Below, piece after piece: positions 2,628-50,358 of a DNA stretch of 64,000 nucleotides. The notes beneath the pieces were generated by a model. It saw nothing but the letters and a program-made list of their open reading frames with translations. It had not been told where the DNA came from and did no database searches. Each line of letters opens with the position of its first letter. Within the stretch, counting starts at the first letter, position 1. The position numbers were made by a program, and so were the translations under genes. The stretch is from a virus: IMG/VR virus record IMGVR_UViG_3300037245_003639. One strand, given 5' to 3'.

Positions 2628-2683
2628 GTAACCTCTCCTTTGACGAACCTGACATTCATCGTTTGTATATAAAGAGATGTGAA

Positions 2684-2720
2684 AAGTCAAATAAAAAGTC
2701 AAATAAAAATCAAATAAATG
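2684..2720 (-). repeat. Three tandem AT-rich 12-bp repeats, (A)GTCAAATAAAA. On the minus strand they read TTTTATTTGACT, each carrying a -35 like TTGAC.
   Basis: Direct repeats at 2684-2696, 2697-2708 and 2709-2720, about 60-95 nt upstream of the DUF1573 gene start. A TATATACA box follows downstream on the minus strand. Confidence 0.5.
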
Positions 2721-2775
2721 ACAGGCAGGCAGGTGACAGGCAGGTGACAGGCAGGTGACAGGCAGGTGACAGGCC
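2720..2775. repeat. About 4.5 copies of a tandem 11-bp GC-rich repeat, GACAGGCAGGT. An iteron or operator-like array.
   Basis: A perfect tandem array is visible. It is intergenic, upstream of gene 1680..2627. Confidence 0.7.
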
Positions 2776-3775: not shown

Positions 3776-3795
3776 CATTCATTATACACGCAGAA
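3776..3795 (-). promoter_or_regulatory. Sigma70-like -10 region, GCGTGTATAATGAA, first copy of the recurring (G/T)TGTATAATG motif
   Basis: TATAAT with an adjacent TG lies about 55 nt upstream of the ATG of gene 2974..3729. The same box recurs at 7319, 10529, 11967 and 53478. Confidence 0.5.
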
Positions 3796-3841
3796 AAGGA
3801 CGGACTCCGGAGAACCGGTGGTTGTATATACATGCCGCTTG

Positions 3842-4093
3842 TCATTTTTTATCCCAATTTATCTCTTTAGGCGTCCCATCTCCATAAAGAAAATACCGAG
3901 GCGGATGATCGCAGACATCATCGCACATGCAAGATGCTGTGCGAGCTACATGCCGCTTGTCATCATCACACCACCACGACGTGCATCCGTCATACTTCCA
4001 CTTGCCACCGAGGCGCTTTTCAAGATATTTGGTTTTGTTCTTGCAGTGGAAGTTTAAGTCCAGCTTTTTCACGTTGGTCCATCCATTTCTCAT
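3842..4093 (-). CDS. Small Cys-rich protein (83 aa)
   Basis: The ORF has about 9 Cys. It overlaps the 3' end of the HNH gene. Confidence 0.4.
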   Translation of the reverse strand: MRNGWTNVKKLDLNFHCKNKTKYLEKRLGGKWKYDGCTSWWCDDDKRHVARTASCMCDDVCDHPPRYFLYGDGTPKEINWDKK

Positions 4094-4403
4094 GTCGAGC
4101 TTTTACATCCCCATGCTTCTCCACAATCACAGAACATTCATATGCAAAATCCATAATGTTGTTAGTGGCTTTATGCCCCTTGATGCAATGATGAACGTTG
4201 AATTGGCTCTCATTCTCAATCAAATTGACTCGACTACAGGAATAGCACTCAAAACTGTCGCAACCCCATCGGTGATGGGGAAGAGAATTGTAACTTCCAC
4301 ATTGACACTGATACACCCACGTAAAATGTGTTCCGAAGTTATTATTCATACCCGCTAAGGGGACTATATCTCGTTTCTTTCGTTTAGTCAGGTCAACGAT
4401 CAT
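4020..4403 (-). CDS. HNH endonuclease (small, 127 aa)
   Basis: A Cys pair (CQCG ... CYSC) flanks the sequence VHHCIKGHKATNN, which fits the HNH H-N-H pattern. Confidence 0.55.
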   Translation of the reverse strand: MIVDLTKRKKRDIVPLAGMNNNFGTHFTWVYQCQCGSYNSLPHHRWGCDSFECYSCSRVNLIENESQFNVHHCIKGHKATNNIMDFAYECSVIVEKHGDVKARHEKWMDQREKAGLKLPLQEQNQIS

Positions 4404-4420
4404 TCTAATCTTTCTCAGGG

Positions 4421-4705
4421 TTATATATAACGGTCATCTGGAGGCTCAGCCCGAGAACCTGCTTCAGACCGCAATTTTCGCAGTTTGTTATACTCCACAT
4501 CAAATTCACGAAATAGGTCACGTAACGTTTGGAAGATATCATACGAAACACCACCAGCGTCACTAAATCGCACTGATTCCCGTAAAATATTTTTCATGCA
4601 TTTCTTTTCACATTCCTCAAGCATCATGTCTATCGCATCAGTCTCATGCTCATAAAGTTGACCATCAGGCGTCTTAAACGCGGTTATCTCTGTGGTGCAT
4701 CTCAT
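4421..4705 (-). CDS. Hypothetical protein. Corrected start at MRCTTEITAF.
   Basis: The ATG at 4703-4705 is preceded by TTTGGAGAAG. The ORF-track start at 4810 would overlap the upstream gene by 92 nt. Confidence 0.5.
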   Translation of the reverse strand: MRCTTEITAFKTPDGQLYEHETDAIDMMLEECEKKCMKNILRESVRFSDAGGVSYDIFQTLRDLFREFDVEYNKLRKLRSEAGSRAEPPDDRYI

Positions 4706-4718
4706 CGTCTTCTCCAAA

Positions 4719-4931
4719 TTAGGATTCAACATCCGGATTAAAAGGTGGAGGCCAATTCTTTTGAGTTTCTCTAATCCGTTCATAAAGAAAATCGCTTGCT
4801 TGCTCATCAAGAACTCGTTGCACTCGCAGAGCCACCGCTTTCCATTTCACAGGGCCAACTTGATCCAACAAACCAACAATATCATCTGCCGCTTGCTCTG
4901 CTTCAGGACTTATCTTTGTCGAATCTTGCAC
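4719..4931 (-). CDS. Hypothetical protein (70 aa, GTG start)
   Basis: GGAGATTGCA precedes the GTG at 4929-4931. Confidence 0.4.
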   Translation of the reverse strand: MQDSTKISPEAEQAADDIVGLLDQVGPVKWKAVALRVQRVLDEQASDFLYERIRETQKNWPPPFNPDVES

Positions 4932-5137
4932 TGCAATCTCCTAATTCCCGCCAACCGGCGAAATGGTTCCACCATTGCTTGAGAAAGAGCAACGCGACCT
5001 TCGTCGGTGTTCAATGTTTGTGCGATGATGTGATTCAAATCTACAGTACCACATTTTGGACAATAATTGAATTGTCTTTGGTCACCATGCTTGCATTTAC
5101 GACATCGCTGGAGATTATCCAGTTCCATTTTCGGCAT
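4910..5137 (-). CDS. Small protein with an N-terminal zinc ribbon. Its C-terminal half copies the capsid N-terminus.
   Basis: The N-terminus is CRKCKHG...CPKCG. The C-terminal half, IIAQTLNTDEGRVALSQAMVEP, matches residues 14-36 of the 289-aa capsid candidate. The DNA at 4981-5030 is about 48/49 identical to 15246-15296. Confidence 0.5.
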   Translation of the reverse strand: MPKMELDNLQRCRKCKHGDQRQFNYCPKCGTVDLNHIIAQTLNTDEGRVALSQAMVEPFRRLAGIRRLQCKIRQR

Positions 5138-5309
5138 CTTTAGTTTTTACTGTAGTTTGACAATCATCACAGATAAAAGAATCATCATCTTCATTTATGT
5201 ATTCATTGAGAACATTGTCACCACATTTATCACAAATAGAATGAGAAGTGCAATAAGTACAAGGCGGATTAATGTGACACGAACAACCTTCTGCTTCTTC
5301 AAATGCCAT
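5115..5309 (-). CDS. Cys-rich zinc-finger protein (64 aa)
   Basis: Motifs CSCH..CTYC...CDKCG...CDDC are present. The RBS is AAGGA. Confidence 0.5.
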   Translation of the reverse strand: MAFEEAEGCSCHINPPCTYCTSHSICDKCGDNVLNEYINEDDDSFICDDCQTTVKTKDAENGTG

Positions 5310-5314
5310 CTTAT

Positions 5315-5536
5315 TTAGTCCTTGGATCCAAACTTTACCGTCTTGGGATGTGAATATTGAGTGCCATGAACATGGATATGCTTATAACCCAATTCAAGAC
5401 CAACCACCTCTCCTTCATCATCATAGACAGGCTTGTGATCTTGTTTCAAATCAATATCACATGCATCCGCCATAAACTCGTGAGTGAGCCCTTTTCCGTC
5501 TTTATCAAAAAACTCAACAGTTATTTTTGCTTTCAT
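5315..5536 (-). CDS. Hypothetical protein. Corrected start at MKAKITVEF.
   Basis: AAAGGAGAAGTT precedes the ATG at 5534-5536. Confidence 0.5.
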   Translation of the reverse strand: MKAKITVEFFDKDGKGLTHEFMADACDIDLKQDHKPVYDDEGEVVGLELGYKHIHVHGTQYSHPKTVKFGSKD

Positions 5537-5546
5537 AACTTCTCCT

Positions 5547-5933
5547 TTATTCAGCAATTAAGCATGACTTGCAATACCACTGTTTGTTTATCCGTCGCCA
5601 TCCCGTCTTTTCGATGTCCATGACCGATACTCCCTCTTCAATACACTCAAACGAACCGTATTCATCAACTTGAAACACTGAGCATGCCTCATAAACACCA
5701 CAAGAACATTCAAATATGAGTTTCTCTGTACCAGGAATTGTGCTCATTCCAAATCTCTCAGAGAAAAATGTTAGAGCCCTTGTGAGCAAATGCTCTTTTG
5801 CCATTCGCAGATGCAATTCACATGCGTCCTCACAATGCTTGCTGGCAGGTTCGTCGCAGTATCGACATTTACCCATGGTTGTTCCTGTCATTACGAAACC
5901 AATATTAGTCATCTTCTTCTTTGAACTCATCAA
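5547..5933 (-). CDS. Cys-rich protein with CxxC motifs (about 120-128 aa)
   Basis: The sequence contains CRYCDEPASKHCEDAC ... CSCG ... CKSC. The start is ambiguous: 5933 or the ATG at 5912. Confidence 0.5.
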   Translation of the reverse strand: MMSSKKKMTNIGFVMTGTTMGKCRYCDEPASKHCEDACELHLRMAKEHLLTRALTFFSERFGMSTIPGTEKLIFECSCGVYEACSVFQVDEYGSFECIEEGVSVMDIEKTGWRRINKQWYCKSCLIAE

Positions 5934-6246
5934 CTAAACCCTCCAGCATCTCGTCATCCACATCTTTGTAGAACAACCTCAAACGCAAACTGCCATCCCA
6001 ATAAGGATAAAGTTGAACTCCATCATGCTCCCCAAAACCATAATCATAAACGTAAACATATTCCCATTGAGAAATGTGCAAAACCAACTCCTCAAAGGAC
6101 GAACATCCATCGAAGGAATAATCAAAAGACAACTCCAGGTCCAAATTCGAATCAGATGAATGATCTGCAATGACCCAGAGACAGTCTTTGCTGAGGTTGT
6201 CAATAAACTCTACGATACGCTTAAGCAAATCTTTACGAGAACTCAT
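5905..6246 (-). CDS. Hypothetical acidic protein (113 aa)
   Basis: The ORF is preceded by the GCTGCGGAGAAT motif. Confidence 0.45.
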   Translation of the reverse strand: MSSRKDLLKRIVEFIDNLSKDCLWVIADHSSDSNLDLELSFDYSFDGCSSFEELVLHISQWEYVYVYDYGFGEHDGVQLYPYWDGSLRLRLFYKDVDDEMLEGLVDEFKEEDD

Positions 6247-6275
6247 ATCACTCTATTCTCCGCAGCATCTTGGCC
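6247..6275 (-). promoter_or_regulatory. Conserved leader, GATGCTGCGGAGAAT-N-ATG, copy 1 of 2
   Basis: The plus-strand sequence attctccgcagcatc recurs at 6983-7010. Confidence 0.35.
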
Positions 6276-6283
6276 CACTCCAA

Positions 6284-6568
6284 TCAGTCATCGATGGTTT
6301 CAAAGAAGCCTTTGTATAGGATGAAACTGAGTGTTTCTTCGTCGGGATCTTCGTCGAAGACCTCATTCCAAACCTGTCCGATTTTGTCGATCAGGTCTGT
6401 ATTGTTCACAATCTCTTTGGTCGTATCCCCCTTATGAGCACAACAAATGACCCTGTACATCAATTTGGACATTGCCAAGCGAAAATTATCTTTGTTGACT
6501 TTGAACTCCAAAGTGGGCGGATAAAGAGACCGACATATTTGTTCAATATCGATACTTTGATCAGTCAT
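6284..6568 (-). CDS. Hypothetical protein (94 aa)
   Basis: The RBS is AATAGGAGTTGAA-ATG. Confidence 0.45.
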   Translation of the reverse strand: MTDQSIDIEQICRSLYPPTLEFKVNKDNFRLAMSKLMYRVICCAHKGDTTKEIVNNTDLIDKIGQVWNEVFDEDPDEETLSFILYKGFFETIDD

Positions 6569-6586
6569 TTCAACTCCTATTTCATA

Positions 6587-6982
6587 TTAGACAGGTTTCA
6601 CTTGGTCCTCTCGACCGTGCTGATCAATATTTTCAATTAGCACAATAGCGTAATCATAAGCTATTGTCGGAGTCCAGGCATGAACCTCGTAAGAGCCATT
6701 GTTCGTCTCAACTACAACTTTCCACCTAATGGATGAATACCCATCGTCATAAAATGGCTCTTCATGAATATCCTGAACTGTAACACCAAATTTTGCGTGG
6801 TACTTACGCAAGGTATCCTTTGCACTTTCAATGGACTTGTGTAAAAGTTCGCTGAAGTCTCCACCATTGCCAATCTGTGCAATTCTCCAATCAGAAGCTA
6901 CAAGACCAACATCTATATGTAGACCGGAACCTGTTGAGTCAAAGATAGTGTCAATTATCATGTCATTCTCCGCAGCATCCAC
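6587..6982 (-). CDS. Hypothetical protein (131 aa)
   Basis: The ORF is preceded by copy 2 of the GCTGCGGAGAAT motif. Confidence 0.45.
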   Translation of the reverse strand: MDAAENDMIIDTIFDSTGSGLHIDVGLVASDWRIAQIGNGGDFSELLHKSIESAKDTLRKYHAKFGVTVQDIHEEPFYDDGYSSIRWKVVVETNNGSYEVHAWTPTIAYDYAIVLIENIDQHGREDQVKPV

Positions 6983-7301
6983 TTGAGATCAGTGTGTCAC
7001 TAAGAACCTTGACCGCTTCATCCCAATCATCTAAGAGTATTTGCAGCGATTGAATATGAAGTCTAACAGGGTGGAATTTAGCCAAAGTCTTTTGCCCATC
7101 TTCGTCCATTCGCTGCAAGATGGGGATAGTTTGTTCTATCTCAGCTTTCGTGACATAGTGGCTCATACCGAGGCCGGGTTTAATGCACATTGCGATATTA
7201 GAGTTATTTAGATTGAGGTTATTCATGGTTGCTATCTGTTGACCATTTTCATCGAAAAACTCCACTGTTTTGTACGTCTGAGACTGAACTTGAATAGACA
7301 T
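6963..7301 (-). CDS. Hypothetical protein (112 aa)
   Basis: TGTATAAT and AAGGAGA lie upstream of the ATG. Confidence 0.45.
   Translation of the reverse strand: MSIQVQSQTYKTVEFFDENGQQIATMNNLNLNNSNIAMCIKPGLGMSHYVTKAEIEQTIPILQRMDEDGQKTLAKFHPVRLHIQSLQILLDDWDEAVKVLSDTLISSGCCGE
6983..7010 (-). promoter_or_regulatory. Conserved leader, GATGCTGCGGAGAAT-N-ATG, copy 2
   Basis: Same 15-nt core as at 6247-6275. Confidence 0.35.
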
Positions 7302-7318
7302 AATTGTCTCCTTACCTC

Positions 7319-7348
7319 AATTATACACTGGGCTTAGCTCCAGGCCCA
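7319..7348 (-). promoter_or_regulatory. Sigma70-like -10 box, CAGTGTATAATTGAGG, with an upstream imperfect hairpin. A degenerate copy of the 65-bp repeat.
   Basis: Compare with the repeats at 10529 and 11967. Confidence 0.4.
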
Positions 7349-7371
7349 CGTCAGCGGGATATGATCGAGAA

Positions 7372-7680
7372 TCACGCCTCAGCCCCACCAAATCCTCGAC
7401 AATAGAACTCTTTGTTACAGTGAGGACAGGTTATATCCTGCGGATGATCATCTGTCGGCTCTTTGCTGCAAAAAGGAAGGTTCTCCAGCCGATCATATTC
7501 AGCCTCTTCTGCGGCCTGGGCTTTCTCCCCTTCGGTCAGCTCCATAGGAAAACCATGGGCCAGCCGCAATGCCTTGTCAAAATCATATCCGGCTTCTTCA
7601 ACAAATCTTTTGCACTCTAATATAGGCAGAGCTGTCGCCTTACGCAATCTTACAATGACCGTATTTGGCAAAGAAAACAT
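7372..7680 (-). CDS. Hypothetical protein with a C-terminal CxxC motif. Corrected start at MFSLPNTVIV.
   Basis: The ATG at 7678-7680 is preceded by the conserved GGAGATTGAAG motif. Confidence 0.5.
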   Translation of the reverse strand: MFSLPNTVIVRLRKATALPILECKRFVEEAGYDFDKALRLAHGFPMELTEGEKAQAAEEAEYDRLENLPFCSKEPTDDHPQDITCPHCNKEFYCRGFGGAEA

Positions 7681-7715
7681 CTTCAATCTCCAGATACTTC
7701 GCGCTTTGCTAATTC
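7681..7715 (-). promoter_or_regulatory. Conserved promoter-like element a: GCGAAGTATCTGGAGATTGAAG-ATG
   Basis: One of eight copies of the 35-nt consensus. Confidence 0.5.
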
Positions 7716-7894
7716 TGCATGTACAAATAAGCGCAATCAATCCAGGTGCGCTCAAATTTCTTGTTCTGATCTTTCAATTTATGAGCTTCCCGTTTTGTTT
7801 TACATACGGCACGAATTACAGCATCGTGACTCACTAATTCATAAAGCACCCAAAATTTACTGCGAGTTTGCACAACCTTGGCAACCTTTGCCAT
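7709..7894 (-). CDS. Hypothetical protein. Corrected start at MAKVAKV.
   Basis: The ORF-track TTG start lies inside the motif. The ATG is at 7892-7894. Confidence 0.45.
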   Translation of the reverse strand: MAKVAKVVQTRSKFWVLYELVSHDAVIRAVCKTKREAHKLKDQNKKFERTWIDCAYLYMQN

Positions 7895-7928
7895 TTCAAT
7901 CTCCAAATATTTCTCTAATTGAAGAAGT
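7895..7928 (-). promoter_or_regulatory. Conserved promoter-like element b: GAGAAATATTTGGAGATTGAA-ATG
   Basis: Motif copy. Confidence 0.45.
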
Positions 7929-8283
7929 TCGTTGTTACATCAAGTAAGTTTGGAGCGACAAATGCACCACGATAAGAACTGTCGATTACTTCAAACAAAT
8001 GCAAATAACCTTTTTGCACTTGTAGCAGTTTGTCAATCTGATCTTCAAATACGGTATCAGTTATAGCATACGCAGGCACAAGAAAACATTCACCACAATC
8101 GATAATGTCAGGAGAACTTCGGTTAGCCATAACCACGACGCGCTTAGAATACCGATTAAAACAGATTGCTCTGTCTTGTGGCCACTTGTAATAGGATGCC
8201 TGGATAGTGTTATGGCTGGTTTTGATTGTTCCTATGGTATGCGTCCACCAGGCAATTGTTCTAACAGGCAACCAAATTATCAT
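7915..8283 (-). CDS. Hypothetical protein (122 aa)
   Basis: The RBS is AAAGGTGA. Confidence 0.45.
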   Translation of the reverse strand: MIIWLPVRTIAWWTHTIGTIKTSHNTIQASYYKWPQDRAICFNRYSKRVVVMANRSSPDIIDCGECFLVPAYAITDTVFEDQIDKLLQVQKGYLHLFEVIDSSYRGAFVAPNLLDVTTNFFN

Positions 8284-8474
8284 TGTTTATCACCTTTGAA
8301 ATACCGATACAATTCACCATCAGAAAATGTTCTCAACTCATCAGAATGATACAAACGAGGACGGATGGGTTCGGTCATCATGTAAACATATATGTTGTTT
8401 TCATAACGTGGATTGTTTTTAAGTTCATCACCAACTACTTGGTCATGTATGCGAGATGTTCTATTCTGTTTCAT
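8280..8474 (-). CDS. Hypothetical protein (64 aa)
   Basis: The ORF overlaps its neighbours by 4 nt. Confidence 0.4.
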   Translation of the reverse strand: MKQNRTSRIHDQVVGDELKNNPRYENNIYVYMMTEPIRPRLYHSDELRTFSDGELYRYFKGDKQ

Positions 8475-8989
8475 TGGTTGACTTCCAGAAGTGACAAAAT
8501 TTCATCCATTTTTATCTGCTTGATAATATCAGATGCTTCATCACGCATAGATAACTGAAGATCATAAACCTTCTTGTGCCAATCATAATGTATGTTAGGA
8601 CATTCATGCTCGTCCTGTTTTGTTGTTGGACTTCCAGCAGCAACATATTGCTTGTGAGAAACAGAACAACAACTACCCAAAACCTTGCGAACAACACTCC
8701 TGTTAACGTTCATCTTCGTATCACAAATGCCACAATAAACACTCTCATATTTATCCGGACTTGTTGATAGTTTGTCCTGAAAATGTGCATTAGGCTCTTT
8801 TGTCGAACGTTGAGGAAACATCTTCTGTTTGCCCGGGGGATAATAAGATCCTGGATTGGGAGCAAGCGGCAACTTGCCCGCATATACTCGTCTGTTGTTC
8901 TTATCCCTTATGACAACTTCAGCGTCACCAGCAGGATTTTCGTGAACTTGCACCAATTCAAAATCCGCGAATACTTCCTCATTCATCAT
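8471..8989 (-). CDS. Hypothetical protein (172 aa)
   Basis: The ORF is preceded by motif copy c. Confidence 0.5.
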   Translation of the reverse strand: MMNEEVFADFELVQVHENPAGDAEVVIRDKNNRRVYAGKLPLAPNPGSYYPPGKQKMFPQRSTKEPNAHFQDKLSTSPDKYESVYCGICDTKMNVNRSVVRKVLGSCCSVSHKQYVAAGSPTTKQDEHECPNIHYDWHKKVYDLQLSMRDEASDIIKQIKMDEILSLLEVNQ

Positions 8990-9272
8990 TCAAATCTCCA
9001 GATGCTTCTCTATCCGGTGAAAGTCTTCCGTTCTCTCTCTCGGATTCATAAAGTGAAAGCGCAACCTCTACCAACTTTTTCACCGCATTATCATATTCTT
9101 CGTTCATCCGAAGACCAGATCTCCAATTGTCCAAAGCGTGTTTCAAACTTCTTATATACAGATCATCTTGAAGAGGACAACCAGCACCAGTTGTACTCAT
9201 ATTCACTTTTTCGGCAATTGATAAGAGCCCTTCCATGTTATTAACACCAGGCCACCATTCAGGACGATACAT
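8979..9272 (-). CDS. Hypothetical protein. Corrected start at MYRPEWW.
   Basis: The ORF-track start is a TTG inside the motif. Confidence 0.45.
   Translation of the reverse strand: MYRPEWWPGVNNMEGLLSIAEKVNMSTTGAGCPLQDDLYIRSLKHALDNWRSGLRMNEEYDNAVKKLVEVALSLYESERENGRLSPDREASGDLNDE
8990..9030 (-). promoter_or_regulatory. Conserved promoter-like element c: CACCGGATAGAGAAGCATCTGGAGATTTGA-ATG
   Basis: Motif copy. Confidence 0.45.
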
Positions 9273-9318
9273 CTTCAATCTCCAAATACTTCGCTATGCG
9301 GTGAAAATCACTTTGTTC
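9273..9318 (-). promoter_or_regulatory. Conserved promoter-like element d, full consensus: TTCACCGCATAGCGAAGTATTTGGAGATTGAAG-ATG
   Basis: Motif copy. Confidence 0.5.
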
Positions 9319-9341
9319 AGCTTTATCTTCCATGTCGTTTT

Positions 9342-9683
9342 TTAGGGCAAAGGATCAACCATACCATGTTGACGCATAAATCTCCGACGTTCCATTTTAT
9401 CCTCAAATATTTTGTTCGGTGTTAACTCACGATCCCGTTTCTCAAGTTCCTCTTTAAGTGGAACTGTTTCTTCTTCTTCTTCTTCTTTTGCCCACTTTTT
9501 GCGGGCTTCTCTGGCTGTTTTCTCTCCCACTATGTTACATAGATAACCACCGCATGACCAACACTCCCATTCACAACATTCTTCAAGAGTGGGATCAACA
9601 ACGTTGACTTTCTCGCATTTAGAGCACACTTGAGATAATATATGCTTGTTATTTTCCGTTAACTTTTCGCCAATCTTTGTCAT
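9342..9683 (-). CDS. Zinc-ribbon protein with a Glu-rich tail. Corrected start at MTKIGEK.
   Basis: The sequence contains CSKCEK...CCEWECWSCGGYLC. The ATG is preceded by motif copy e. Confidence 0.5.
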   Translation of the reverse strand: MTKIGEKLTENNKHILSQVCSKCEKVNVVDPTLEECCEWECWSCGGYLCNIVGEKTAREARKKWAKEEEEEETVPLKEELEKRDRELTPNKIFEDKMERRRFMRQHGMVDPLP

Positions 9684-9915
9684 CTTCAATATCTCCAGAT
9701 ACATACTTGTCGCTATCGTCTTCTCTGGGTTCTGCCAGTCGAATGATTTCTTCCAAATGTTCAATTATAAATGGAGCAACAGTATACGTCTTCATGCCAC
9801 TTGAAAACATCCCTCCAAAATCATCCAAATCGTCTTTGTGTTCGCAAAGAAATCGCTCGATACGACCAATAGGATTGTTCTTAAATGTCACGGTTTTTAC
9901 TCGTCGCTCGGTCAT
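9649..9915 (-). CDS. Hypothetical protein. Corrected start at MTERRVKT.
   Basis: The ATG is preceded by motif copy f. Confidence 0.45.
   Translation of the reverse strand: MTERRVKTVTFKNNPIGRIERFLCEHKDDLDDFGGMFSSGMKTYTVAPFIIEHLEEIIRLAEPREDDSDKYVSGDIEDDKDWRKVNGK
9684..9722 (-). promoter_or_regulatory. Conserved promoter-like element e: CGATAGCGACAAGTATGTATCTGGAGATATTGAAG-ATG
   Basis: Motif copy. Confidence 0.45.
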
Positions 9916-9950
9916 CTTCAATCTCCAAATACTTCCGACAAACAAGCCCT
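9916..9950 (-). promoter_or_regulatory. Conserved promoter-like element f: GTCGGAAGTATTTGGAGATTGAAG-ATG
   Basis: Motif copy. Confidence 0.45.
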
Positions 9951-10524
9951 AAAATTTGTTGTCAGCTTTGGCAATTAGCTTGTCAAACGGAGCCAGTTTT
10001 TCTACAGGCACCGATAAACCTCTATGCCCTGTCCTGGGAATATTTCCAAGTTTACCATGCTTCTTTATAATCGATCCATTCGCAGAGCATATACCTGCAA
10101 TATGAACATGTGGTTCATTGGTTTCGTCCAAATGGACAAAGACCTGCATATAGCCAAACACGTTCGCTTTCTTTAGTTCTTCCTCTTTAACAAACAGATT
10201 CAGACCGCCTCTGAAAGGAGCATATTTGCTTGTTTTGATATTCCAAATAGTCGTCTTGCCAGAGATATCTATGTGGACATCCCCTTCATCCCCTTTACCA
10301 CAAACCAACTCCAACGAACAAATCTTCTTTGCTTTGCCAAGTTTATCAAAGACGATGAGACTACCCAACAAATCCAGAAAATCACCTTGCCCCCTAAACT
10401 GCTCTTCTATTTCGTTAAAACCGGATCTGCGTTGCTGAGGAACGAGGTTTTGATAGAAGTGCTCTGCAAAACTAAGCAAGGGCTGAGGGATGGCTATATA
10501 AAAGTCGTTTAATATTGCTTGCAT
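9949..10524 (-). CDS. Hypothetical protein (191 aa)
   Basis: The ATG lies immediately downstream of the 65-bp repeat with a TATAAT box. Confidence 0.5.
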   Translation of the reverse strand: MQAILNDFYIAIPQPLLSFAEHFYQNLVPQQRRSGFNEIEEQFRGQGDFLDLLGSLIVFDKLGKAKKICSLELVCGKGDEGDVHIDISGKTTIWNIKTSKYAPFRGGLNLFVKEEELKKANVFGYMQVFVHLDETNEPHVHIAGICSANGSIIKKHGKLGNIPRTGHRGLSVPVEKLAPFDKLIAKADNKF

Positions 10525-10528
10525 TTTT

Positions 10529-10595
10529 CATTATACACTGAGCTTGGCTTCAAGCTCGGCAATTTCAACCCATTATGAGAGACCACGCAGCATCT
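10529..10595 (-). repeat. 65-bp repeat, copy 1: hairpin GAGCTTG-AAGC-CAAGCTC followed by the -10 box AGTGTATAATG
   Basis: It is near-identical to 11967-12030. Its 3' part encodes the C-terminus AAWSLIMG of gene 10565..10783. Confidence 0.6.
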
Positions 10596-10783
10596 ATAAG
10601 TTCATCATCCCATGTCTCTACATATTCATAAGGCAATCCATGTTGAGCCGTCCGAGATGATATGACGTGAATCTGCAAATCTCGGAATTCTTCTTCAGAC
10701 ATGTCTACTGATTGGCCTGGAGCAACAGACCTATTATATAAGTTCATTTTTGTTGATTCGATGTTGGCGATTGTTGTGCTCAT
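10565..10783 (-). CDS. Hypothetical protein (72 aa)
   Basis: The ORF is preceded by motif copy g. Confidence 0.45.
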   Translation of the reverse strand: MSTTIANIESTKMNLYNRSVAPGQSVDMSEEEFRDLQIHVISSRTAQHGLPYEYVETWDDELIDAAWSLIMG

Positions 10784-10830
10784 TTCATCTCCAAATACTT
10801 CGCTATGCGGTGAAAATCACCCTTCTTGCA
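10784..10830 (-). promoter_or_regulatory. Conserved promoter-like element g: TTCACCGCATAGCGAAGTATTTGGAGATGAA-ATG
   Basis: Motif copy. Confidence 0.5.
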
Positions 10831-11026
10831 CCCACGAATTTGATACACCCATATAGTATATTCGTTCCAAAACGCGAGAAGCAAATCGACTGTCACATTT
10901 GGTACAAATCATCAATGGCTCACGCCCGCGATGTTTACCTCCATTCTCAAGATCTGCTAGGAACGCATTTTGGTTAGTTGTGCCACAATTCGGACATTCA
11001 AATTGGTAAACTCGTTTCTTACCCAT
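10817..11026 (-). CDS. Zinc-ribbon protein. Corrected start at MGKKRVY.
   Basis: The sequence contains CPNCG...CTKC. The ORF-track N-terminus is translated through motif copy h. Confidence 0.5.
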   Translation of the reverse strand: MGKKRVYQFECPNCGTTNQNAFLADLENGGKHRGREPLMICTKCDSRFASRVLERIYYMGVSNSWVQEG

Positions 11027-11072
11027 CTTTATCTCCAGATACTTTTCTATGCGGTGAAAGTCACCTATAGAT
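11027..11072 (-). promoter_or_regulatory. Conserved promoter-like element h: TTCACCGCATAGAAAAGTATCTGGAGATAAAG-ATG
   Basis: Motif copy. Confidence 0.5.
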
Positions 11073-11092
11073 TCAGGTTCTAATACTTGCAT

Positions 11093-11347
11093 TTACTTGA
11101 CCCAACTTAATGACCAACTGTCTCCAGGAGCACTATCAATACTGCCAAGCGGATGATGAAAATACAAAGGGTAGTCTTTCCCAAAACAACCGTTAGAACA
11201 GGTGCATTCTTTCCTTTGTGGGTGGTCAGCTTGGGCTGTGTGGTATTTCTCTATTTCCTCGTCACTCACAGCTTTCGTCCAGTCTATTTCTGGCGGTGGT
11301 GGCAAATCGTGGATTTCTAATTTATTTCCGCACACTGGACAGTACAT
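11093..11347 (-). CDS. Zinc-ribbon protein (84 aa)
   Basis: The sequence contains CPVCG ... CTCSNGC. The RBS is AAAGGTGAATC-ATG. Confidence 0.5.
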   Translation of the reverse strand: MYCPVCGNKLEIHDLPPPPEIDWTKAVSDEEIEKYHTAQADHPQRKECTCSNGCFGKDYPLYFHHPLGSIDSAPGDSWSLSWVK

Positions 11348-11374
11348 GATTCACCTTTACTTTCATGTTTTCTT

Positions 11375-11530
11375 TCAATCTGGCCATTTCATCAACTCGG
11401 GCAATGGGAGCGGCAACCATTCTCCGCTACATTTAGGACAACAGTGTTCATCTTTTTTTGAGGCGGGAATTTCTTCGCCGCAAAAAGGACATGTGAGAGT
11501 GACAAATTCGATGATGGTGATTTCAGTCAT
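11375..11530 (-). CDS. Micro-ORF (51 aa) encoding a zinc-ribbon protein that is missing from the ORF track
   Basis: The protein reads MTEITIIEFVTLTCPFCGEEIPASKKDEHCCPKCSGEWLPLPLPELMKWPD. Its ATG at 11530 overlaps the stop of the upstream gene (GATGACTGA), which suggests translational coupling. Confidence 0.45.
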   Translation of the reverse strand: MTEITIIEFVTLTCPFCGEEIPASKKDEHCCPKCSGEWLPLPLPELMKWPD

Positions 11531-11948
11531 CAATCATTCCCCATCCACCTTTGCGAGGCGGTGGACGACGTTCCACTTTTTTATCGTTAACAATACAAGA
11601 ACCATCTTTACTCAATTGGAGGCTCCCACTTAATCGCCCGTTGGCCAAATCAACCCACATGGTTTCTTCGACCTTCCCTGCATGAGTGGTGTCGTCTGTA
11701 TCCGAAATACAAGGGAATGCATACTTGAGTTTGTCCGCCAATGCTATCGTAAAATCTATTTCCCCCGATAAAAGCCCCTCCAGGGTATCCATGCTAATTC
11801 CAGCGTTTTCGCAAACTTGTTCGTTCGAAAGTTTAAAGAGTTTTATGTGCCCCAACAGTGTATCAGATACAGTTTTGCATTTCAGAGCATCTATATCTCG
11901 ATTTTCTATCCACTCCATGTTTTTCATATCATCTTCTATTAGATCCAT
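11523..11948 (-). CDS. Hypothetical protein (141 aa)
   Basis: CTCAGTGTATAATGAATCTGGAGATATGAGAC-ATG lies upstream, giving a -10 box plus an RBS. Confidence 0.5.
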   Translation of the reverse strand: MDLIEDDMKNMEWIENRDIDALKCKTVSDTLLGHIKLFKLSNEQVCENAGISMDTLEGLLSGEIDFTIALADKLKYAFPCISDTDDTTHAGKVEETMWVDLANGRLSGSLQLSKDGSCIVNDKKVERRPPPRKGGWGMIDD

Positions 11949-11966
11949 GTCTCATATCTCCAGATT

Positions 11967-12030
11967 CATTATACACTGAGTTTGGCTTCAAGCTCGGCAA
12001 TACTCAACCCATTATGAGAGACCACGCAGC
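11967..12030 (-). repeat. 65-bp repeat, copy 2: hairpin plus AGTGTATAATG. It carries a 27-aa gene-fragment paralog ending AAWSLIMG.
   Basis: About 90% identical to copy 1. Confidence 0.6.
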
Positions 12031-12121
12031 GACGATGGGCTCATATTTGTCACAATCACATTTCCAGATCCAATGTTGAGCATTCATATAGTTCTCGCCA
12101 ACGAGTACAATCCAAGATGAC

Positions 12122-13306
12122 TCAAAAATCACCCAAATCCAACCCTAGCTCTTTTAGTTCGTTAAAAATCCTTGCAGAATTTACATATGACTGAGTGTAA
12201 TTTGGCTCAGTGGCAATAGTTAGCAATTTGGATTGACGAAGTAAAAAATTGAGTAATGAGAAATCGTTCTTCTGGAATTGTCGAGAGAAATCTTCCTTAT
12301 CCCAGATTCTTGGATCAAAACCATCAATATCATGAACAGCAAAATCCAAATCAATATCAAACCACACAGGTACATCCCAATTTTGCAAAAGACCATGATC
12401 TTTTATAGCATTCTGGTCTAAATTTAATAATTCCCTTATTTCTTCCAATCTCTCATCTTCAGAGAGATCAGAGTGAAAATTTTCAAACAATCCCAAATAA
12501 TAATGAGGGACAGATCCATGTCTCTCTTTTTGTGGATAATTACCCTCGGCTGGGCAATCGGCAAAGAAGGTTATAACGCCTTTCACCATACCCATTTTTG
12601 CTGCCACATAAACCCATGAATCATCTAAAGGGGCTAATTTATTAGCAAATGAGAGGCATTCATCAACATCAGTTATATCATTCATTCCAAATGATCCAAG
12701 TGAATCATAATAATGATCAGGACAGGCATCATTATGTTTGTCAAATCGAATCAACACTGGTGGAGATGTAAATATTCCATCTTTGAATGCAGCCCATATT
12801 GCAGGAATCACCGCCCGATGATCTTCAATGAAAACATCCGTTCTTCCATCTATAGGATAACCTCTATTCACTCTGAAATTCATGCTTTGGTCAAGCCTGT
12901 CCATGTGACAATAACAATCACGATAAGAACTTTTGTCCAATTCAAGAATACCCGACAAGATGGAAACGAAATCGTCAATTTCCTCATCTGAGATACCGCC
13001 TGATTGTCCATCCATATCAAACCAGGCTAACTCAAAAACAACAACCGCGTTTCTGTTATAAATGCTAAACCCAATTATGTTCCCGCGTTTATTTTTAGCC
13101 TTATGAACATCTATGGCCCTCGAAATAGATTCCAAAGCATCCCAGGCGTCATCAGTGGGATTCACAACAAAATTAACATAAAATGCCCCATGCTCAACAT
13201 GCTCAGTATCAGGCTTTTTGTGACCACCGCATGAAGATGCTACCCGAACATCCGGAATTGAATTGAGCACCTCAATGAGTTTTTTAACTCTCTTTTCGAT
13301 CATCAA
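12122..13306 (-). CDS. Hypothetical protein (394 aa)
   Basis: This is a long ORF. It overlaps the LAGLIDADG gene by 4 nt (ATGA). Confidence 0.55.
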   Translation of the reverse strand: MMIEKRVKKLIEVLNSIPDVRVASSCGGHKKPDTEHVEHGAFYVNFVVNPTDDAWDALESISRAIDVHKAKNKRGNIIGFSIYNRNAVVVFELAWFDMDGQSGGISDEEIDDFVSILSGILELDKSSYRDCYCHMDRLDQSMNFRVNRGYPIDGRTDVFIEDHRAVIPAIWAAFKDGIFTSPPVLIRFDKHNDACPDHYYDSLGSFGMNDITDVDECLSFANKLAPLDDSWVYVAAKMGMVKGVITFFADCPAEGNYPQKERHGSVPHYYLGLFENFHSDLSEDERLEEIRELLNLDQNAIKDHGLLQNWDVPVWFDIDLDFAVHDIDGFDPRIWDKEDFSRQFQKNDFSLLNFLLRQSKLLTIATEPNYTQSYVNSARIFNELKELGLDLGDF

Positions 13307-14295: not shown

Positions 14296-14384
14296 TTTCG
14301 ATCTCCTTCGGTAGCATTATACACTTCTCGCTACAAGGTTACCGAAATCTCACTATAATTTTCGTCGCTTTTCATTTTCCACAA

Positions 14385-50299: not shown

Positions 50300-50327
50300 G
50301 GATAGCCTCAACTATCCTATTTTACAC

Positions 50328-50358
50328 AAAAAAGGCCCCCATTCCTTGCAGAAAGGGG
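50328..50358 (-). terminator. Rho-independent terminator downstream of the RNR gene
   Basis: The minus strand reads GAGTCCCCTTTCTGCAAGGAATGGGGGCC followed by TTTTTT. Confidence 0.5.

What the first reader, a model, noticed from the sequence alone, without database searches (positions are those of the whole stretch)
3842..12093. Island of about 30 small genes (50-190 aa), rich in C4 zinc ribbons, each with its own promoter. A candidate host-takeover or anti-defence region.
Between 3.8 and 12.1 kb nearly every gene is under 200 aa. At least ten encode CxxC...CxxC zinc-ribbon or zinc-finger proteins, for example ORFs 4910, 5115, 5547, 9342, 10817 and 11093, plus the micro-ORF at 11375 that is missing from the ORF track. 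Others are very acidic. The island also contains a small HNH endonuclease and is punctuated by two classes of promoter. Phage islands of this kind typically encode inhibitors of host defence, transcription or replication. None of the proteins resembles a characterised family that I can recognise, so this is a pool of candidate anti-defence and host-shutoff factors.
Basis: partly seen in the sequence, partly recalled or inferred. Interest (0 to 1): 0.65.

Follow-up and report, generated by a model that had tools for sequence, protein, structure and literature searches.

The report
Shuffled small-gene island in huge phage
This 8 kb stretch of an uncultivated phage (over 400 kb, related to Bacillus phage G) is a fast-turnover accessory region of 26 small, mostly orphan genes in three operons, joined by repeated promoter and start-codon cassettes at which related phages have swapped genes; this is a familiar kind of phage region, and nothing yet shows that it blocks host defences.

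Summary
26 co-oriented minus-strand genes of 51-191 aa fill 3842-11948 at 94% coding density. Cysteine content is 3.6% against 1.1% elsewhere in the window. There are 18 CxxC motifs against 4.4 expected, and 6 (strict) to 11 (loose) proteins look like zinc ribbons.

The genome is a phage G-like huge phage: its head protein is 54% identical to gp27, and the source contig is 403 kb. In 80 relatives, genes upstream of the head gene are conserved (median shared with 57 loci). Genes downstream are replaced (median 0-2).

Closer relatives (L088, L091/L092) carry the same cassettes at junctions where gene order and content differ. The region therefore works like a T4 hyperplastic region with PeSL cassettes, plus elements resembling mycobacteriophage start-associated sequences.

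An anti-defence or host-takeover role is plausible but has no direct support. This is a new variant of a known kind, of moderate-to-low interest.

The parts
11965..12044 (-). Class A cassette copy 1. About 40 nt of upstream-gene 3' coding sequence (..AAWSLIMG*), then stem-loop GAGCTTGaagcCAAaCTC, then CAGTGTATAAT. Promoter for operon 1 (g01-g05).
   Evidence: 95% identical over 66 nt to copy 2, with homology extending to about 80 nt. Exact GTGTATAAT 19 nt before the g01 ATG.
10527..10605 (-). Class A cassette copy 2. Promoter for operon 2 (g06-g14). Its stem-loop is the best preserved copy.
   Evidence: Hairpin -12.7 kcal/mol, z = -2.4. TATAAT ends 5 nt before the g06 ATG, so the mRNA is probably leaderless.
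7317..7353 (-). Class A cassette copy 3 (diverged). Promoter for operon 3 (g15-g26).
   Evidence: 65% identical to the reference copy. Exact GTGTATAAT 18 nt before the g15 ATG.
3781..3816 (-). Class A variant (decayed terminator plus T-run plus GTGTATAAT) at the downstream edge of the island. Promoter for the 251-aa gene at 2974-3729.
   Evidence: 89% identical to L091 273-308, where the same element is an intact terminator hairpin (-24 kcal/mol, z = -5.4) followed by UUUUU and GTGTATAAT.
14316..14324 (-). Fifth exact GTGTATAAT. Promoter of the LAGLIDADG homing-endonuclease gene just upstream of the island.
11024..11065 (-). Class B cassette (extended part plus core) ending at the g04 ATG.
10781..10822 (-). 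Class B cassette (extended part plus core) ending at the g05 ATG. The g04 stop codon lies inside it.
   Evidence: 34 nt are 100% identical to the g09 copy.
9270..9311 (-). Class B cassette (extended part plus core) ending at the g09 ATG.
8987..9027 (-). Class B cassette (extended part plus core) ending at the g10 ATG. It lies inside the 3' coding end of g09.
9913..9937 (-). Class B core ending at the g07 ATG.
   Evidence: Exact 22-mer.
9681..9703 (-). Class B core ending at the g08 ATG. It lies inside the g07 coding region.
7892..7915 (-). Class B core ending at the g13 ATG.
7678..7702 (-). Class B core ending at the g14 ATG.
11946..11968 (-). Degenerate class B core (aATCTGGAGATatgagacATG) directly after the class A -10 element, at g01.
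11523..11948 (-). g01, 141 aa, acidic (net -10). First gene of operon 1. Possible DNA-binding protein.
   Evidence: Weak PADLOC homing-endonuclease hit, E = 8e-4. No similarity to the neighbouring LAGLIDADG enzyme.
11375..11530 (-). g02, 51 aa zinc ribbon (CPFC..CPKC).
   Evidence: Its start overlaps the end of g01 (ATGA).
11093..11347 (-). g03, 84 aa, CPVC plus CxC..C.
10817..11026 (-). g04, 69 aa zinc ribbon (CPNC..CTKC).
   Evidence: Start chosen at the ATG that follows class B.
10565..10783 (-). g05, 72 aa, acidic, no Cys. Its C-terminus (AAWSLIMG) lies within class A copy 2.
9949..10524 (-). g06, 191 aa PD-(D/E)xK-fold nuclease (Hjc / I-Ssp6803I-like). The only island gene with an assignable fold.
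9649..9915 (-). g07, 88 aa, acidic.
9342..9683 (-). g08, 113 aa zinc ribbon (CSKC..CWSC) with a charged helical tail.
8979..9272 (-). g09, 97 aa, acidic.
8471..8989 (-). g10, 172 aa. A variable 54-aa N-terminal extension followed by a conserved 113-aa Cys/His core (CGIC ... ECP ... WH).
   Evidence: Homologs at 65-88% identity over the core only. dN/dS 0.13-0.18. 32% identity to the 595 kb phage record LR756511.1. The AF2 model is unusable, pLDDT 39.
8280..8474 (-). g11, 64 aa.
   Evidence: 77% identical homolog in L088/L089, but placed before the g10 homolog there with an unrelated gene between them. dN/dS 0.14.
7915..8283 (-). g12, 122 aa (one CGEC).
7709..7894 (-). g13, 61 aa, basic (net +7).
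7372..7680 (-). g14, 102 aa, with a C-terminal Cys cluster (C..CPHC..C).
6963..7301 (-). g15, 112 aa. First gene of operon 3.
6587..6961 (-). g16, 124 aa, acidic (net -10).
6284..6568 (-). g17, 94 aa, acidic.
5905..6246 (-). g18, 113 aa, very acidic (net -19).
5547..5930 (-). g19, 127 aa, 10 Cys (CRYC ... CKSC).
   Evidence: Start at 5930 follows the independent gene call and a GGAGG Shine-Dalgarno.
5315..5536 (-). g20, 73 aa.
5115..5309 (-). g21, 64 aa, 8 Cys (three CxxC), acidic (net -11).
4910..5128 (-). g22, 72 aa chimera. An N-terminal zinc ribbon (CRKC..CPKC) is fused in frame to a copy of the phage's own major head protein, residues 15-39.
4956..5030 (-). 75 bp duplicate of head-gene codons 15-39 (source 15221-15295), inside g22.
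   Evidence: 89% nt identity to this phage's own head gene against at most 76% to relatives. Of 8 differences, the 3 non-synonymous ones all lie in the copy at positions invariant in head proteins.
4719..4931 (-). g23, 70 aa (GTG start).
4421..4705 (-). g24, 94 aa.
4020..4403 (-). g25, 127 aa, 7 Cys plus HH pairs. The most HNH-like candidate, but no HNH model matches it.
   Evidence: Only itself is found among 5.8 billion protein clusters.
3842..4093 (-). g26, 83 aa, 6 Cys. It overlaps g25 by 74 nt, so this is the least certain gene call.

Best explanation
The interval is the local version of a lineage-wide plasticity hotspot that begins just downstream of the major head gene in phage G-like huge phages. 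It behaves like a hyperplastic accessory region. SHOWN: It holds 26 small, tightly packed genes. Three consensus -10 elements (GTGTATAAT) divide them into three polycistronic units (g01-g05, g06-g14, g15-g26). Each -10 element sits in a repeated composite cassette (class A) made of the 3' end and stop codon of the upstream gene, a stem-loop (an intact terminator hairpin plus U-run in the relative L091) and the -10 box. Nine genes in the first two units begin with a near-identical 22-40 nt cassette (class B) that contains the Shine-Dalgarno GGAG at a near-fixed distance from the ATG. In closer relatives the same cassettes sit exactly at the points where homology to the window starts and stops, and gene order and content differ there. 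g10 and g11 are under purifying selection, so at least these genes are functional. INFERRED: Host sigma-A RNA polymerase transcribes the island from the class A promoters at a different time from the virion genes, probably early or middle. Class B gives the genes behind it a uniform, strong translation start and may be a site for coordinated control. Both cassette types act as portable patches of homology through which co-infecting relatives exchange, duplicate, truncate and fuse small genes by homologous recombination. The cargo is small, fast-turnover proteins whose most likely collective role is to modulate the host and competing elements. About a quarter are zinc-ribbon modules that bind nucleic acid or protein, and one is a horizontally mobile PD-(D/E)xK nuclease.
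For: Gene model, density and independent gene calls. Five exact GTGTATAAT, all on the minus strand and all between 3781 and 14324 (about 0.5 expected), each 5-51 nt before a start codon. No such box precedes the terminase, portal, protease or head genes. Class A repeats. Stem-loops. Class B has 13 matches against 3.7 expected, 11 of them in the island on the coding strand. Its frame relative to the ATG varies, and it is absent from 1.35 Mb of relatives and, beyond chance single hits, from IMG/VR. Lineage-wide contrast: ORFs upstream of the head gene are shared with a median of 57-58 of 79 loci, downstream ORFs with 0-2. Phage G has the same layout, with about 24 small genes after gp27 and gp28. 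Mosaicism at cassettes: L091 is assembled from a class A element like window 3816-3781, a class B element like 9305-9269, the g10 core (8824-8486, 91%), a class B element like 10822-10787, and another class A element followed by unrelated genes. In L088 the g11 homolog precedes the g10 homolog. g10 homologs carry different N- or C-terminal extensions. Purifying selection (dN/dS 0.13-0.18). Nuclease. Its homologs sit in small-gene runs of unrelated viral contigs (GC 39, 50 and 64%). Group 3 jumbo phages, including phage G, lack RNA polymerase and sigma genes (PMC7824862). PeSL definition: PMC2839356.
Against: No transcription or translation data exist, so promoter activity, timing and any effect of class B are inferred from sequence alone. 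Class A has no recognisable -35 element, the generic -35/-10 scan is not enriched (16 found, 24.6 expected), and only one of the five window copies folds clearly better than shuffled sequence. The 80 head-gene relatives are ancient (head-gene dS about 2, saturated), so missing homologs there could reflect age alone and need not mean rapid turnover. The closer relatives are contigs of only 1.0-2.9 kb. Recombination at the cassettes is inferred from breakpoint positions and was not observed. Only 64 kb of a genome of at least 403 kb was examined, so the genome-wide cassette distribution and the presence of a phage RNA polymerase are unknown.
Confidence: 0.7

Rival explanations
1. One reading: the island is mainly a pool of early host-takeover and anti-defence proteins, that is, inhibitors of restriction, CRISPR, abortive infection, host RNA polymerase or replication. 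This concerns the function of the cargo and is compatible with the architecture described in the best explanation.
For: The proteins are small, orphan, often acidic (g18 net -19) or zinc-binding. Their promoters differ from those of the virion genes. The location is hypervariable. In one relative (L086) the g10 homolog lies between a PRPP-synthetase-type gene and an NAPRTase-type gene. That enzyme pairing is of the kind used by the phage NAD+ reconstitution pathway NARP1 (10.1101/2024.02.11.579819 and PMC12774641, listed).
Against: There is no similarity to any characterised anti-defence or defence protein. The only fold obtained is a nuclease. The g10 context differs in every relative, so the NAD-gene neighbourhood (one of four contexts, with both flanking genes partial) may be coincidental. 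Zinc-ribbon abundance in this lineage has another published reading. Early timing has not been demonstrated.
Confidence: 0.3
2. The zinc-ribbon proteins are phage-specific transcription factors or DNA-binding or DNA-packaging proteins, as proposed for the ~35-copy ZnR expansion of Bacillus phage G. On this view the island is chiefly a regulatory module for the phage's own large genome.
For: Phage G's ZnR example, YP_009015343.1 (gp32), and its paralogs gp34, 35, 37 and 46 lie in the equivalent small-gene run just after the head gene. Group 3 jumbo phages have no RNA polymerase or sigma factor of their own and would need factors to redirect the host enzyme. Weak Pfam hits point to Com, TFIIS or TFIIB-type ribbons.
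Against: The window's zinc proteins are not members of the phage G family (best profile score 11 bits, only at the CPxC knuckle, and no KENDRYL motif). They are not paralogs of one another. Regulators of a phage's own programme would be expected to be conserved in relatives, yet none is. Zinc-ribbon density here (6 of 26) is about 5 times that of the equivalent regions in relatives (16 of 340).
Confidence: 0.2
3. Class B is a promoter. It would be recognised by a phage-encoded or phage-modified RNA polymerase, giving nine extra transcription units with very short or no leaders.
For: It is a strongly conserved, strand-specific motif of 22-40 nt placed upstream of genes. Single-subunit phage polymerase promoters have a similar length.
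Against: The motif includes the SD and runs to within 0-1 nt of the ATG at near-fixed spacing, so a start site inside it would remove the ribosome-binding site. In L091 it lies about 20 nt downstream of a class A -10 box, inside the predicted 5' UTR. Two copies lie within the coding sequence of the preceding gene. No RNA polymerase domain was found among the window's large proteins. Phage G-type jumbo phages are reported to lack RNA polymerase and sigma genes. The motif does not match a sigma-70 site.
Confidence: 0.08
4. The small genes encode minor virion, head-completion or head-tail connector proteins, as is common directly after a major head gene.
For: The genes lie immediately downstream of the protease, scaffold-like and head genes in the same orientation.
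Against: None is conserved in 80 relatives whose neighbouring structural genes are conserved. None hits a PHROG structural family. The genes have their own consensus -10 promoters, which the virion genes lack. The set is rich in zinc ribbons and includes a nuclease.
Confidence: 0.04
5. Most of the ORFs are non-functional: decaying selfish DNA or chance ORFs that happen to be Cys-rich.
For: 22 of the 26 have no detected homolog by the searches that were valid. g25 matches only itself among 5.8 billion clusters. g26 overlaps g25 by 74 nt. The head-gene fragment in g22 shows relaxed constraint.
Against: The region has 94% coding density on one strand, and 19 of 26 genes have an SD at the right spacing. 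An independent gene caller reaches the same model. CxxC pairing far exceeds what the composition predicts (0 of 5000 shuffles). g10 and g11 show dN/dS 0.13-0.18. g06 belongs to a conserved family that folds with pLDDT 94.8.
Confidence: 0.05

Closest known systems
PeSL (promoter-early stem-loop) cassettes in the hyperplastic regions of T4-type phages (Arbiol et al. 2010, PMC2839356; Comeau et al. 2014, PMC4122927)
   Same: Both are repeated composite intergenic cassettes made of the upstream stop codon, a stem-loop or terminator, a host-type promoter and then SD and start. Both are concentrated in regions of small ORFan genes set among conserved core genes, and both are found at the breakpoints of insertions, deletions and replacements between related phages.
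   Different: The phage lineage differs (phage G-like, not T4-like) and the sequences are unrelated. Class A has a perfect -10 box (GTGTATAAT) but no recognisable -35 or AT-rich upstream element. The stem-loop is well preserved in only 1 of 5 window copies, though it is intact in L091. There is one cassette per 5-12 genes, not one per ORFan. Promoter and terminator activity and mini-circles are untested.
Start-associated sequences (SAS) and extended SAS of Cluster K mycobacteriophages (Pope et al. 2011, PMC3203893)
   Same: Both are short, asymmetric, single-orientation repeats a few bases upstream of ATG start codons of unrelated non-structural genes. Both contain the SD core but are conserved well beyond what 16S rRNA pairing explains. 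In both, a subset carries an additional conserved element immediately upstream, the motif is private to one phage group, and the function is unknown.
   Different: The consensus is unrelated (AAGTATYTGGAGATTGAAG here, GGGATAGGAGCCC for SAS). The extended part is a single direct element (GTGATTTTCACCGCATAGCG), not a 17-bp inverted repeat pair. There are nine copies clustered in 4.3 kb, not 11-19 spread over half a genome. Here the cassettes also mark recombination junctions.
Lineage-specific zinc-ribbon (ZnR) expansion of Bacillus phage G (Iyer et al. 2021, PMC7824862)
   Same: Both belong to the same broad lineage (head protein 54% identical). Both show many small zinc-ribbon proteins in the run of small genes directly after the head gene.
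   Different: Phage G's copies are true paralogs with a shared C-terminal KENDRYL motif (E down to 6e-18 between copies). The window's zinc proteins are related neither to them nor to each other.
Archaeal Holliday-junction resolvase Hjc and PD-(D/E)xK homing endonuclease I-Ssp6803I (for g06 only)
   Different: Sequence identity is only 8-12%. The third motif reads N-x-K, not (D/E)-x-K. g06 has extra N- and C-terminal elements and conserved histidines (H131, H139, H141) that Hjc lacks. Substrate and activity are unknown.
Stoperators of Cluster A mycobacteriophages (L5), as contrasted with SAS in PMC3203893
   Same: Both are multiple copies of a short asymmetric motif, in one orientation, in short intergenic spaces of non-structural operons.
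   Different: Stoperators are repressor-binding sites that act on transcription and are not tied to start codons. Class B is locked to the SD and ATG. No repressor was identified here.

Membership tests
PeSL-type regulatory cassette (T4-like hyperplastic regions) | Sigma-70-like promoter with -35 and -10 boxes | tested here: inconclusive
   There is a perfect -10 box with a conserved GTG prefix in 5 copies. No -35 is recognisable, and the generic scan is not enriched.
PeSL-type regulatory cassette (T4-like hyperplastic regions) | Associated stable stem-loop acting as terminator or attenuator | tested here: inconclusive
   The g06 copy folds at -12.7 kcal/mol (z = -2.4). The L091 copy folds at -24 kcal/mol (z = -5.4) and is followed by UUUUU. 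The other four window copies are no better than shuffled sequence.
PeSL-type regulatory cassette (T4-like hyperplastic regions) | Concentrated in variable ORFan regions and located at indel or replacement breakpoints between relatives | tested here: met
   5 of 5 exact copies lie at 3.8-14.3 kb. Homology breakpoints coincide with cassettes in L091/L092 and L088.
PeSL-type regulatory cassette (T4-like hyperplastic regions) | Demonstrated promoter and terminator activity and formation of mini-circles | not testable with these tools
   This needs reporter assays and PCR on phage DNA.
Start-associated sequence (SAS/ESAS), Cluster K mycobacteriophages | Consensus 5'-GGGATAGGAGCCC | tested here: not met
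   The class B consensus is AAGTATYTGGAGATTGAAG. It is therefore not a member, only a functional analogue.
Start-associated sequence (SAS/ESAS), Cluster K mycobacteriophages | Asymmetric, one orientation, 3-7 bp from ATG starts of unrelated non-structural genes, and conserved beyond the rRNA-pairing bases | tested here: met
   9 of 9 copies are on the coding strand and 9 of 9 precede ATG. GGAG lies 5-7 nt (9 nt in the degenerate g01 copy) from the ATG. The flanking AAGTATYT and ATTGAAG cannot pair with the anti-SD. The downstream proteins are not paralogs.
Start-associated sequence (SAS/ESAS), Cluster K mycobacteriophages | A subset carries an extended upstream element made of 17-bp imperfect inverted repeats | tested here: not met
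   4 of 9 window copies, plus copies in L088 and L091, have an upstream element (GTGATTTTCACCGCATAGCG). It is a single direct element with only a 3-bp dyad.
Phage G lineage-specific ZnR family (gp32-like) | Sequence homology to gp32/34/35/37/46, including the C-terminal KENDRYL motif | tested here: not met
   BLASTP E >= 0.005, at the knuckle only. The best profile HMM score is 11.1 bits, for g03.
HNH endonuclease | Match to HNH-family profiles (beta-beta-alpha-metal core) | tested here: not met
   No HNH model matches any of the 26 proteins at E <= 0.1 in Pfam or PHROGs. The most HNH-like candidate, g25, has no homologs with which to build a model, so its fold was not tested.
PD-(D/E)xK nuclease superfamily (g06) | Restriction-endonuclease-like alpha-beta-beta-beta-alpha-beta core | tested here: met
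PD-(D/E)xK nuclease superfamily (g06) | Catalytic D ... (D/E)-x-K signature | tested here: inconclusive
   D82 is invariant and N95-x-K97 nearly invariant (asparagine, not an acidic residue), together with conserved D48, D79 and E116. The spatial arrangement was not inspected and no activity assay exists.
Known anti-phage defence or anti-defence proteins | Profile or sequence match to a characterised family | tested here: not met
   PADLOC gives only a weak g01 match to a homing-endonuclease model, E = 8e-4. Pfam, PHROGs and PDB give nothing. No dedicated anti-defence library was available.
Virion structural proteins | Conservation with the structural module, or a match to structural PHROGs | tested here: not met
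   0 of 26 proteins are found in 80 relatives that conserve the adjacent structural genes. There is no structural PHROG hit.

The most novel reading that the evidence does not exclude
Class B would be a new start-codon-linked control and exchange element of huge phages. On this reading, a 22-40 nt RNA or DNA cassette is recognised by a phage factor, for example g01 or one of the zinc-ribbon proteins, to switch a set of unrelated accessory genes on or off together at the level of translation. Because the cassette travels with each gene, it would also act as an integrase-free gene-cassette system that plugs any captured ORF into that regulon. A related possibility is that g22, a zinc ribbon fused to the N-arm (residues 15-39) of the phage's own head protein, is a functional capsid mimic, either interfering with a capsid-sensing host defence or regulating assembly, and is not merely a recombination scar.
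Probability: 0.15. Interest if true: 0.6.

Novelty: new variant of a known kind. Interest (0 to 1): 0.35.

Why it matters
Huge phages carry hundreds of orphan genes, and how they acquire, regulate and discard them is poorly understood. This window indicates that a phage G-like lineage uses the same general solution as T4-like phages and Cluster K mycobacteriophages: short repeated regulatory cassettes that both express small accessory genes and provide homology for shuffling them. The cassettes here are unrelated in sequence to those in the other two groups. The region also marks a fixed plasticity hotspot just after the head gene, which would be a practical place to look for accessory functions in related metagenomic phages. 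It yields a short, ranked list for experiments: the g06 nuclease, the g10 family, the very acidic g18, and the g22 capsid-fragment chimera. It does not by itself reveal a new defence or counter-defence mechanism.

Tried and rejected
(1) Megablast of the island against 50,697 phage records found no match.

(2) One X-spaced concatenate of all 26 proteins in the search for homologous proteins returned nothing. The exact g06, g10 and g25 proteins are in that collection, so the trick failed as a method and is not used as evidence of absence. The same concatenate is valid for tblastn against phages (one hit, g10 to LR756511.1), for PDB phmmer (no meaningful hit: one at E = 0.82, 9 bits), and in triplets for Pfam, PHROGs and PADLOC.

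(3) Using the downstream 251-aa gene as a second anchor found no relatives in IMG/VR.

(4) HNH claim: no model hit. g25 has no homologs, so no alignment-based model was possible.

(5) g01 as a fragment of the adjacent LAGLIDADG enzyme: no similarity.

(6) Membership of the zinc proteins in phage G's ZnR family was rejected. Paralogy among the island proteins was also rejected.

(7) AF2 of g10 from 5 sequences gave pLDDT 39, so no fold search was run on it.

(8) Class B as a sigma-70 promoter or as a conserved peptide was rejected on sequence grounds and because its frame varies.

(9) Rfam found nothing in the window or in L088, L091 or L092.

(10) Searching IMG/VR for the cassette sequences gave only isolated single hits in unrelated contigs.

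(11) Longer contigs of close relatives were sought through the g10 family in the metagenome and viral collections. Only the same short contigs were found.

(12) Host inference from the CRISPR-like repeat of L091: no exact match, and the degenerate pattern hits type I-E-like repeats in many phyla.

(13) Alignments A1/A2 were too diverse for the loci search in some collections, and the afdb50 library was unavailable.

(14) No RNA polymerase was found among the window's large proteins, but only 64 kb of at least 403 kb was examined.

Full report
WHAT IS THERE. All genes from about 58.8 kb down to 0.3 kb of the window lie on the minus strand. Reading that strand from 12.1 kb to 3.8 kb gives 26 tightly packed genes of 51-191 aa, g01 to g26. 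Coding density is 94%, intergenic gaps range from -74 to +70 nt, and 19 of 26 genes have an SD-like 4-mer at the right distance. An independent gene caller, run on a separately assembled contig of the same phage, gives the same sizes for g09-g21. In the rest of the window only 9 of 36 genes are under 200 aa, so the run of small genes is not a chance pattern.

ZINC-RIBBON CONTENT. Cysteine makes up 3.6% of island residues against 1.1% elsewhere in the window. There are 18 CxxC motifs against 4.4 +/- 1.9 in within-protein shuffles, and 0 of 5000 shuffles reach 18. Six proteins (g02, g04, g08, g19, g21, g22) have two or more CxxC against 0.57 expected. About eleven have four or more Cys with at least one close Cys pair. 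The proteins are not paralogs of one another. Several are very acidic; g18 has net charge -19.

FAMILY SEARCHES. No island protein reaches threshold in Pfam, PHROGs or PADLOC. The only matches are generic zinc-ribbon hits below cut-off and one weak match of g01 to a homing-endonuclease model. There is no HNH match. tblastn against 50,697 phage genomes gives a single hit, g10 to the 595 kb uncultured phage LR756511.1 at 32% identity. PDB sequences give nothing meaningful. g25, the most HNH-like candidate, has only itself among 5.8 billion protein clusters.

WHAT GENOME THIS IS. The window encodes a terminase, a portal, a protease and a 289-aa major head protein at 14467-15336. The head protein is 54% identical to gp27 of Bacillus phage G (497 kb). 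It is 73-95% identical to proteins on 80 IMG/VR contigs of up to 548 kb. The exact g10 and g25 proteins sit on a 403,172 bp JGI contig. Short contigs 100% identical to the window occur in two other samples. This is therefore a phage G-like huge phage. According to Iyer et al. 2021, jumbo phages of this group lack their own RNA polymerase and sigma factors (PMC7824862). None was seen among the large proteins of this window.

CLASS A CASSETTES ARE PROMOTER-LIKE. GTGTATAAT occurs exactly five times in the 64 kb. All five copies are on the minus strand between 3781 and 14324, where about 0.5 would be expected by chance. They lie 5-51 nt upstream of the LAGLIDADG gene, g01, g06, g15 and the 251-aa gene that follows the island. 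Of the six intergenic, gene-proximal TATAAT boxes in the window, five are these; none precedes a virion gene. The island is therefore three operons (g01-g05, g06-g14, g15-g26), not one promoter per gene.

The copies before g01 and g06 are 95% identical over 66 nt, with homology extending to about 80 nt. They include the last codons and stop of the upstream gene (..AAWSLIMG*) and a stem-loop that abuts the -10 box. Only the g06 copy folds clearly better than shuffled sequence (-12.7 kcal/mol, z = -2.4). In the relative L091, the equivalent of the window's 3816-3781 element is an intact terminator (-24 kcal/mol, z = -5.4, followed by UUUUU) directly before GTGTATAAT. A similar terminator-plus-promoter composite precedes the 1099-aa gene at about 50.3 kb. 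The g06 ATG lies 5 nt after its TATAAT, so that mRNA is probably leaderless.

CLASS B CASSETTES ARE START-CODON ELEMENTS. AAGTATYTGGAGATTGAAG-ATG precedes g01 (degenerate copy), g04, g05, g07, g08, g09, g10, g13 and g14. Four copies extend upstream as GTGATTTTCACCGCATAGCG. The motif contains the SD sequence GGAG and keeps a near-fixed distance from the ATG. Its reading frame relative to the ATG differs between copies, and two copies lie inside the coding end of the preceding gene. It is therefore conserved as nucleotide sequence, not as a peptide, and it does not resemble a sigma-70 site.

Class B is confined to 7678-11968. It is absent from 1.35 Mb around the head genes of 80 relatives, and beyond single chance hits it is absent from IMG/VR. 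Phage G's equivalent gene run has ordinary, varied SD regions. In L091 the cassette lies about 20 nt downstream of a class A -10 box, which places it in the 5' UTR.

A LINEAGE-WIDE HOTSPOT. In the 80 relatives, ORFs upstream of the head gene are shared with a median of 57-58 other loci, and 5-10% are unique. ORFs downstream are shared with a median of 0-2, and 34-50% are unique. This holds with either strand and with 45, 60 or 100 aa cut-offs. None of the 26 island proteins, nor the flanking 394-, 251-, 365- and 439-aa proteins, occurs in those loci. Phage G has the same layout: gp27 is followed by gp28 and then about 24 small genes.

One caveat applies. The head gene is so constrained (dN/dS 0.03) that its synonymous sites are saturated even against the 95%-identical relative (dS about 2). 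These are old relatives, and the contrast shows long-term replacement, not necessarily fast turnover.

SHUFFLING AT THE CASSETTES. Closer relatives were found through g10 (dS 0.27 to L091). L091/L092 read as follows: a class A element like window 3816-3781, then a class B element like 9305-9269, then the g10 core (91% identical to 8824-8486), then a class B relic like 10822-10787 with no ATG, then another class A element and unrelated genes. The g10 homolog there starts at residue 55 of the window protein, directly after class B. In L088/L089 the order is a relative of the 394-aa protein's N-terminus, an unrelated gene, a g11 homolog, an unrelated zinc-ribbon gene and then a g10 homolog. In the window g10 directly precedes g11. 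g10 homologs carry different N- or C-terminal extensions. Homology thus begins and ends at the cassettes. g10 and g11 are under purifying selection (dN/dS 0.13-0.18).

THE CHIMERA g22. Residues 34-58 of g22 are an in-frame copy of residues 15-39 of the phage's own head protein. The 75 bp copy is 89% identical to this phage's head gene against at most 76% to relatives. The three amino-acid changes all fall in the copy, at positions invariant in head proteins. It is most simply a recombination scar that is still in frame. A functional role cannot be excluded.

INTERPRETATION. The best-supported reading (confidence about 0.7) is a hyperplastic accessory region. It is transcribed from host-type promoters embedded in composite cassettes, and a subset of its genes carries a common translation-initiation cassette. 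Both cassette types also serve as homology patches for modular exchange. This is how PeSL cassettes work in T4-type phages (PMC2839356; PMC4122927). Class B closely parallels the start-associated sequences of Cluster K mycobacteriophages, whose function is also unknown (PMC3203893). Neither membership holds at the sequence level, so these are analogues in a different lineage.

It is supported only by circumstantial features. One weak association exists: in L086 the g10 homolog lies between a PRPP-synthetase-type gene and an NAPRTase-type gene, an enzyme pairing of the kind used by phage NAD+ reconstitution pathways.

An alternative for the zinc-ribbon proteins is a role as transcription factors or DNA-binding proteins, as proposed for phage G's ~35-copy ZnR family. 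The window's proteins do not belong to that family.

VERDICT. Three details need correcting: the number of promoters, the nature of class B, and the type of nuclease. The region is a new variant of a known kind of phage genome feature, of moderate-to-low interest by itself. The class B element and the g22 chimera are the parts most worth an experiment.

Noticed in passing
L091 1-262 and L092 1-272 (relatives; SDBU01198288.1 of GCA_004196255.1, and ERZ23486252): A mini CRISPR-like array has three full and one truncated ~29-nt GC-rich palindromic repeats (GGTCTCCCCGTGCGCGCGGGGGTGGACGG) at 61-63 nt spacing. It ends about 40 nt before a class A terminator/promoter cassette and the g10 homolog. The window has no such repeat. 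Rfam is silent. The exact repeat is absent from GTDB representatives, and a degenerate pattern hits type I-E-like repeats in many phyla, so no host could be inferred.
   Followed up: partly
window 4956-5030 (inside g22) and 15221-15295 (head gene): A 75 bp in-frame duplicate of codons 15-39 of the phage's own major head gene forms the C-terminal half of a zinc-ribbon protein. All three amino-acid changes fall at positions invariant in head proteins. It could be a recombination scar or a capsid mimic.
   Followed up: partly
window 10524-10538: The g06 ATG lies only 5 nt downstream of its TATAAT box, so the nuclease mRNA is probably leaderless.
   Followed up: no
window 27240-29675 (-): The portal protein (Mu-type portal domain) carries a C-terminal DUF559 / REase_MTES_1575 (Vsr-like endonuclease) domain at residues ~659-729. 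This is an unusual fusion.
   Followed up: no
window 13303-14295 (-), and 22 of 80 related loci: A free-standing LAGLIDADG homing-endonuclease gene with its own GTGTATAAT promoter sits immediately after the head gene. It occupies the same position in 22 of 80 relatives at 54-66% identity.
   Followed up: partly
window 2682-2774: A perfect 11-nt tandem repeat (4.5 copies; TGTCACCTGCC on the coding strand) is followed by three 12-nt repeats containing TTGACT. Both lie upstream of the probable true start (~2658) of the DUF1573/Ig-like gene. They look like iterated operator or promoter elements.
   Followed up: no
window 2974-3729 (-): The 251-aa protein just after the island has a signal-peptide-like N-terminus and several Cys-rich motifs. 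It has no relatives in IMG/VR.
   Followed up: no
L081 (equals window 9282-10816): A short-read assembly of the same phage from another sample breaks exactly at two identical class B copies. This shows that these repeats fragment metagenomic assemblies of the island.
   Followed up: yes
L086 3-242 and 2201-2755: In one relative the g10 homolog, with two unknown genes, lies between a PRPP-synthetase-type gene (Pribosyl_synth) and an NAPRTase-type gene. That pairing resembles phage NAD+ salvage or reconstitution loci. Both flanking genes are cut by the contig ends.
   Followed up: partly
window 14467-15336 versus L001-L003: The head protein is under extreme constraint. It shows 93-95% amino-acid identity alongside saturated synonymous divergence (dS about 2, dN/dS about 0.03). 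Head-protein identity therefore greatly overstates relatedness in this lineage.
   Followed up: yes
window 50319-50360: A terminator-like hairpin, a T-run and GTGTAAAAT lie directly before the 1099-aa gene. This is the same composite terminator/promoter architecture as class A, but outside the island.
   Followed up: no
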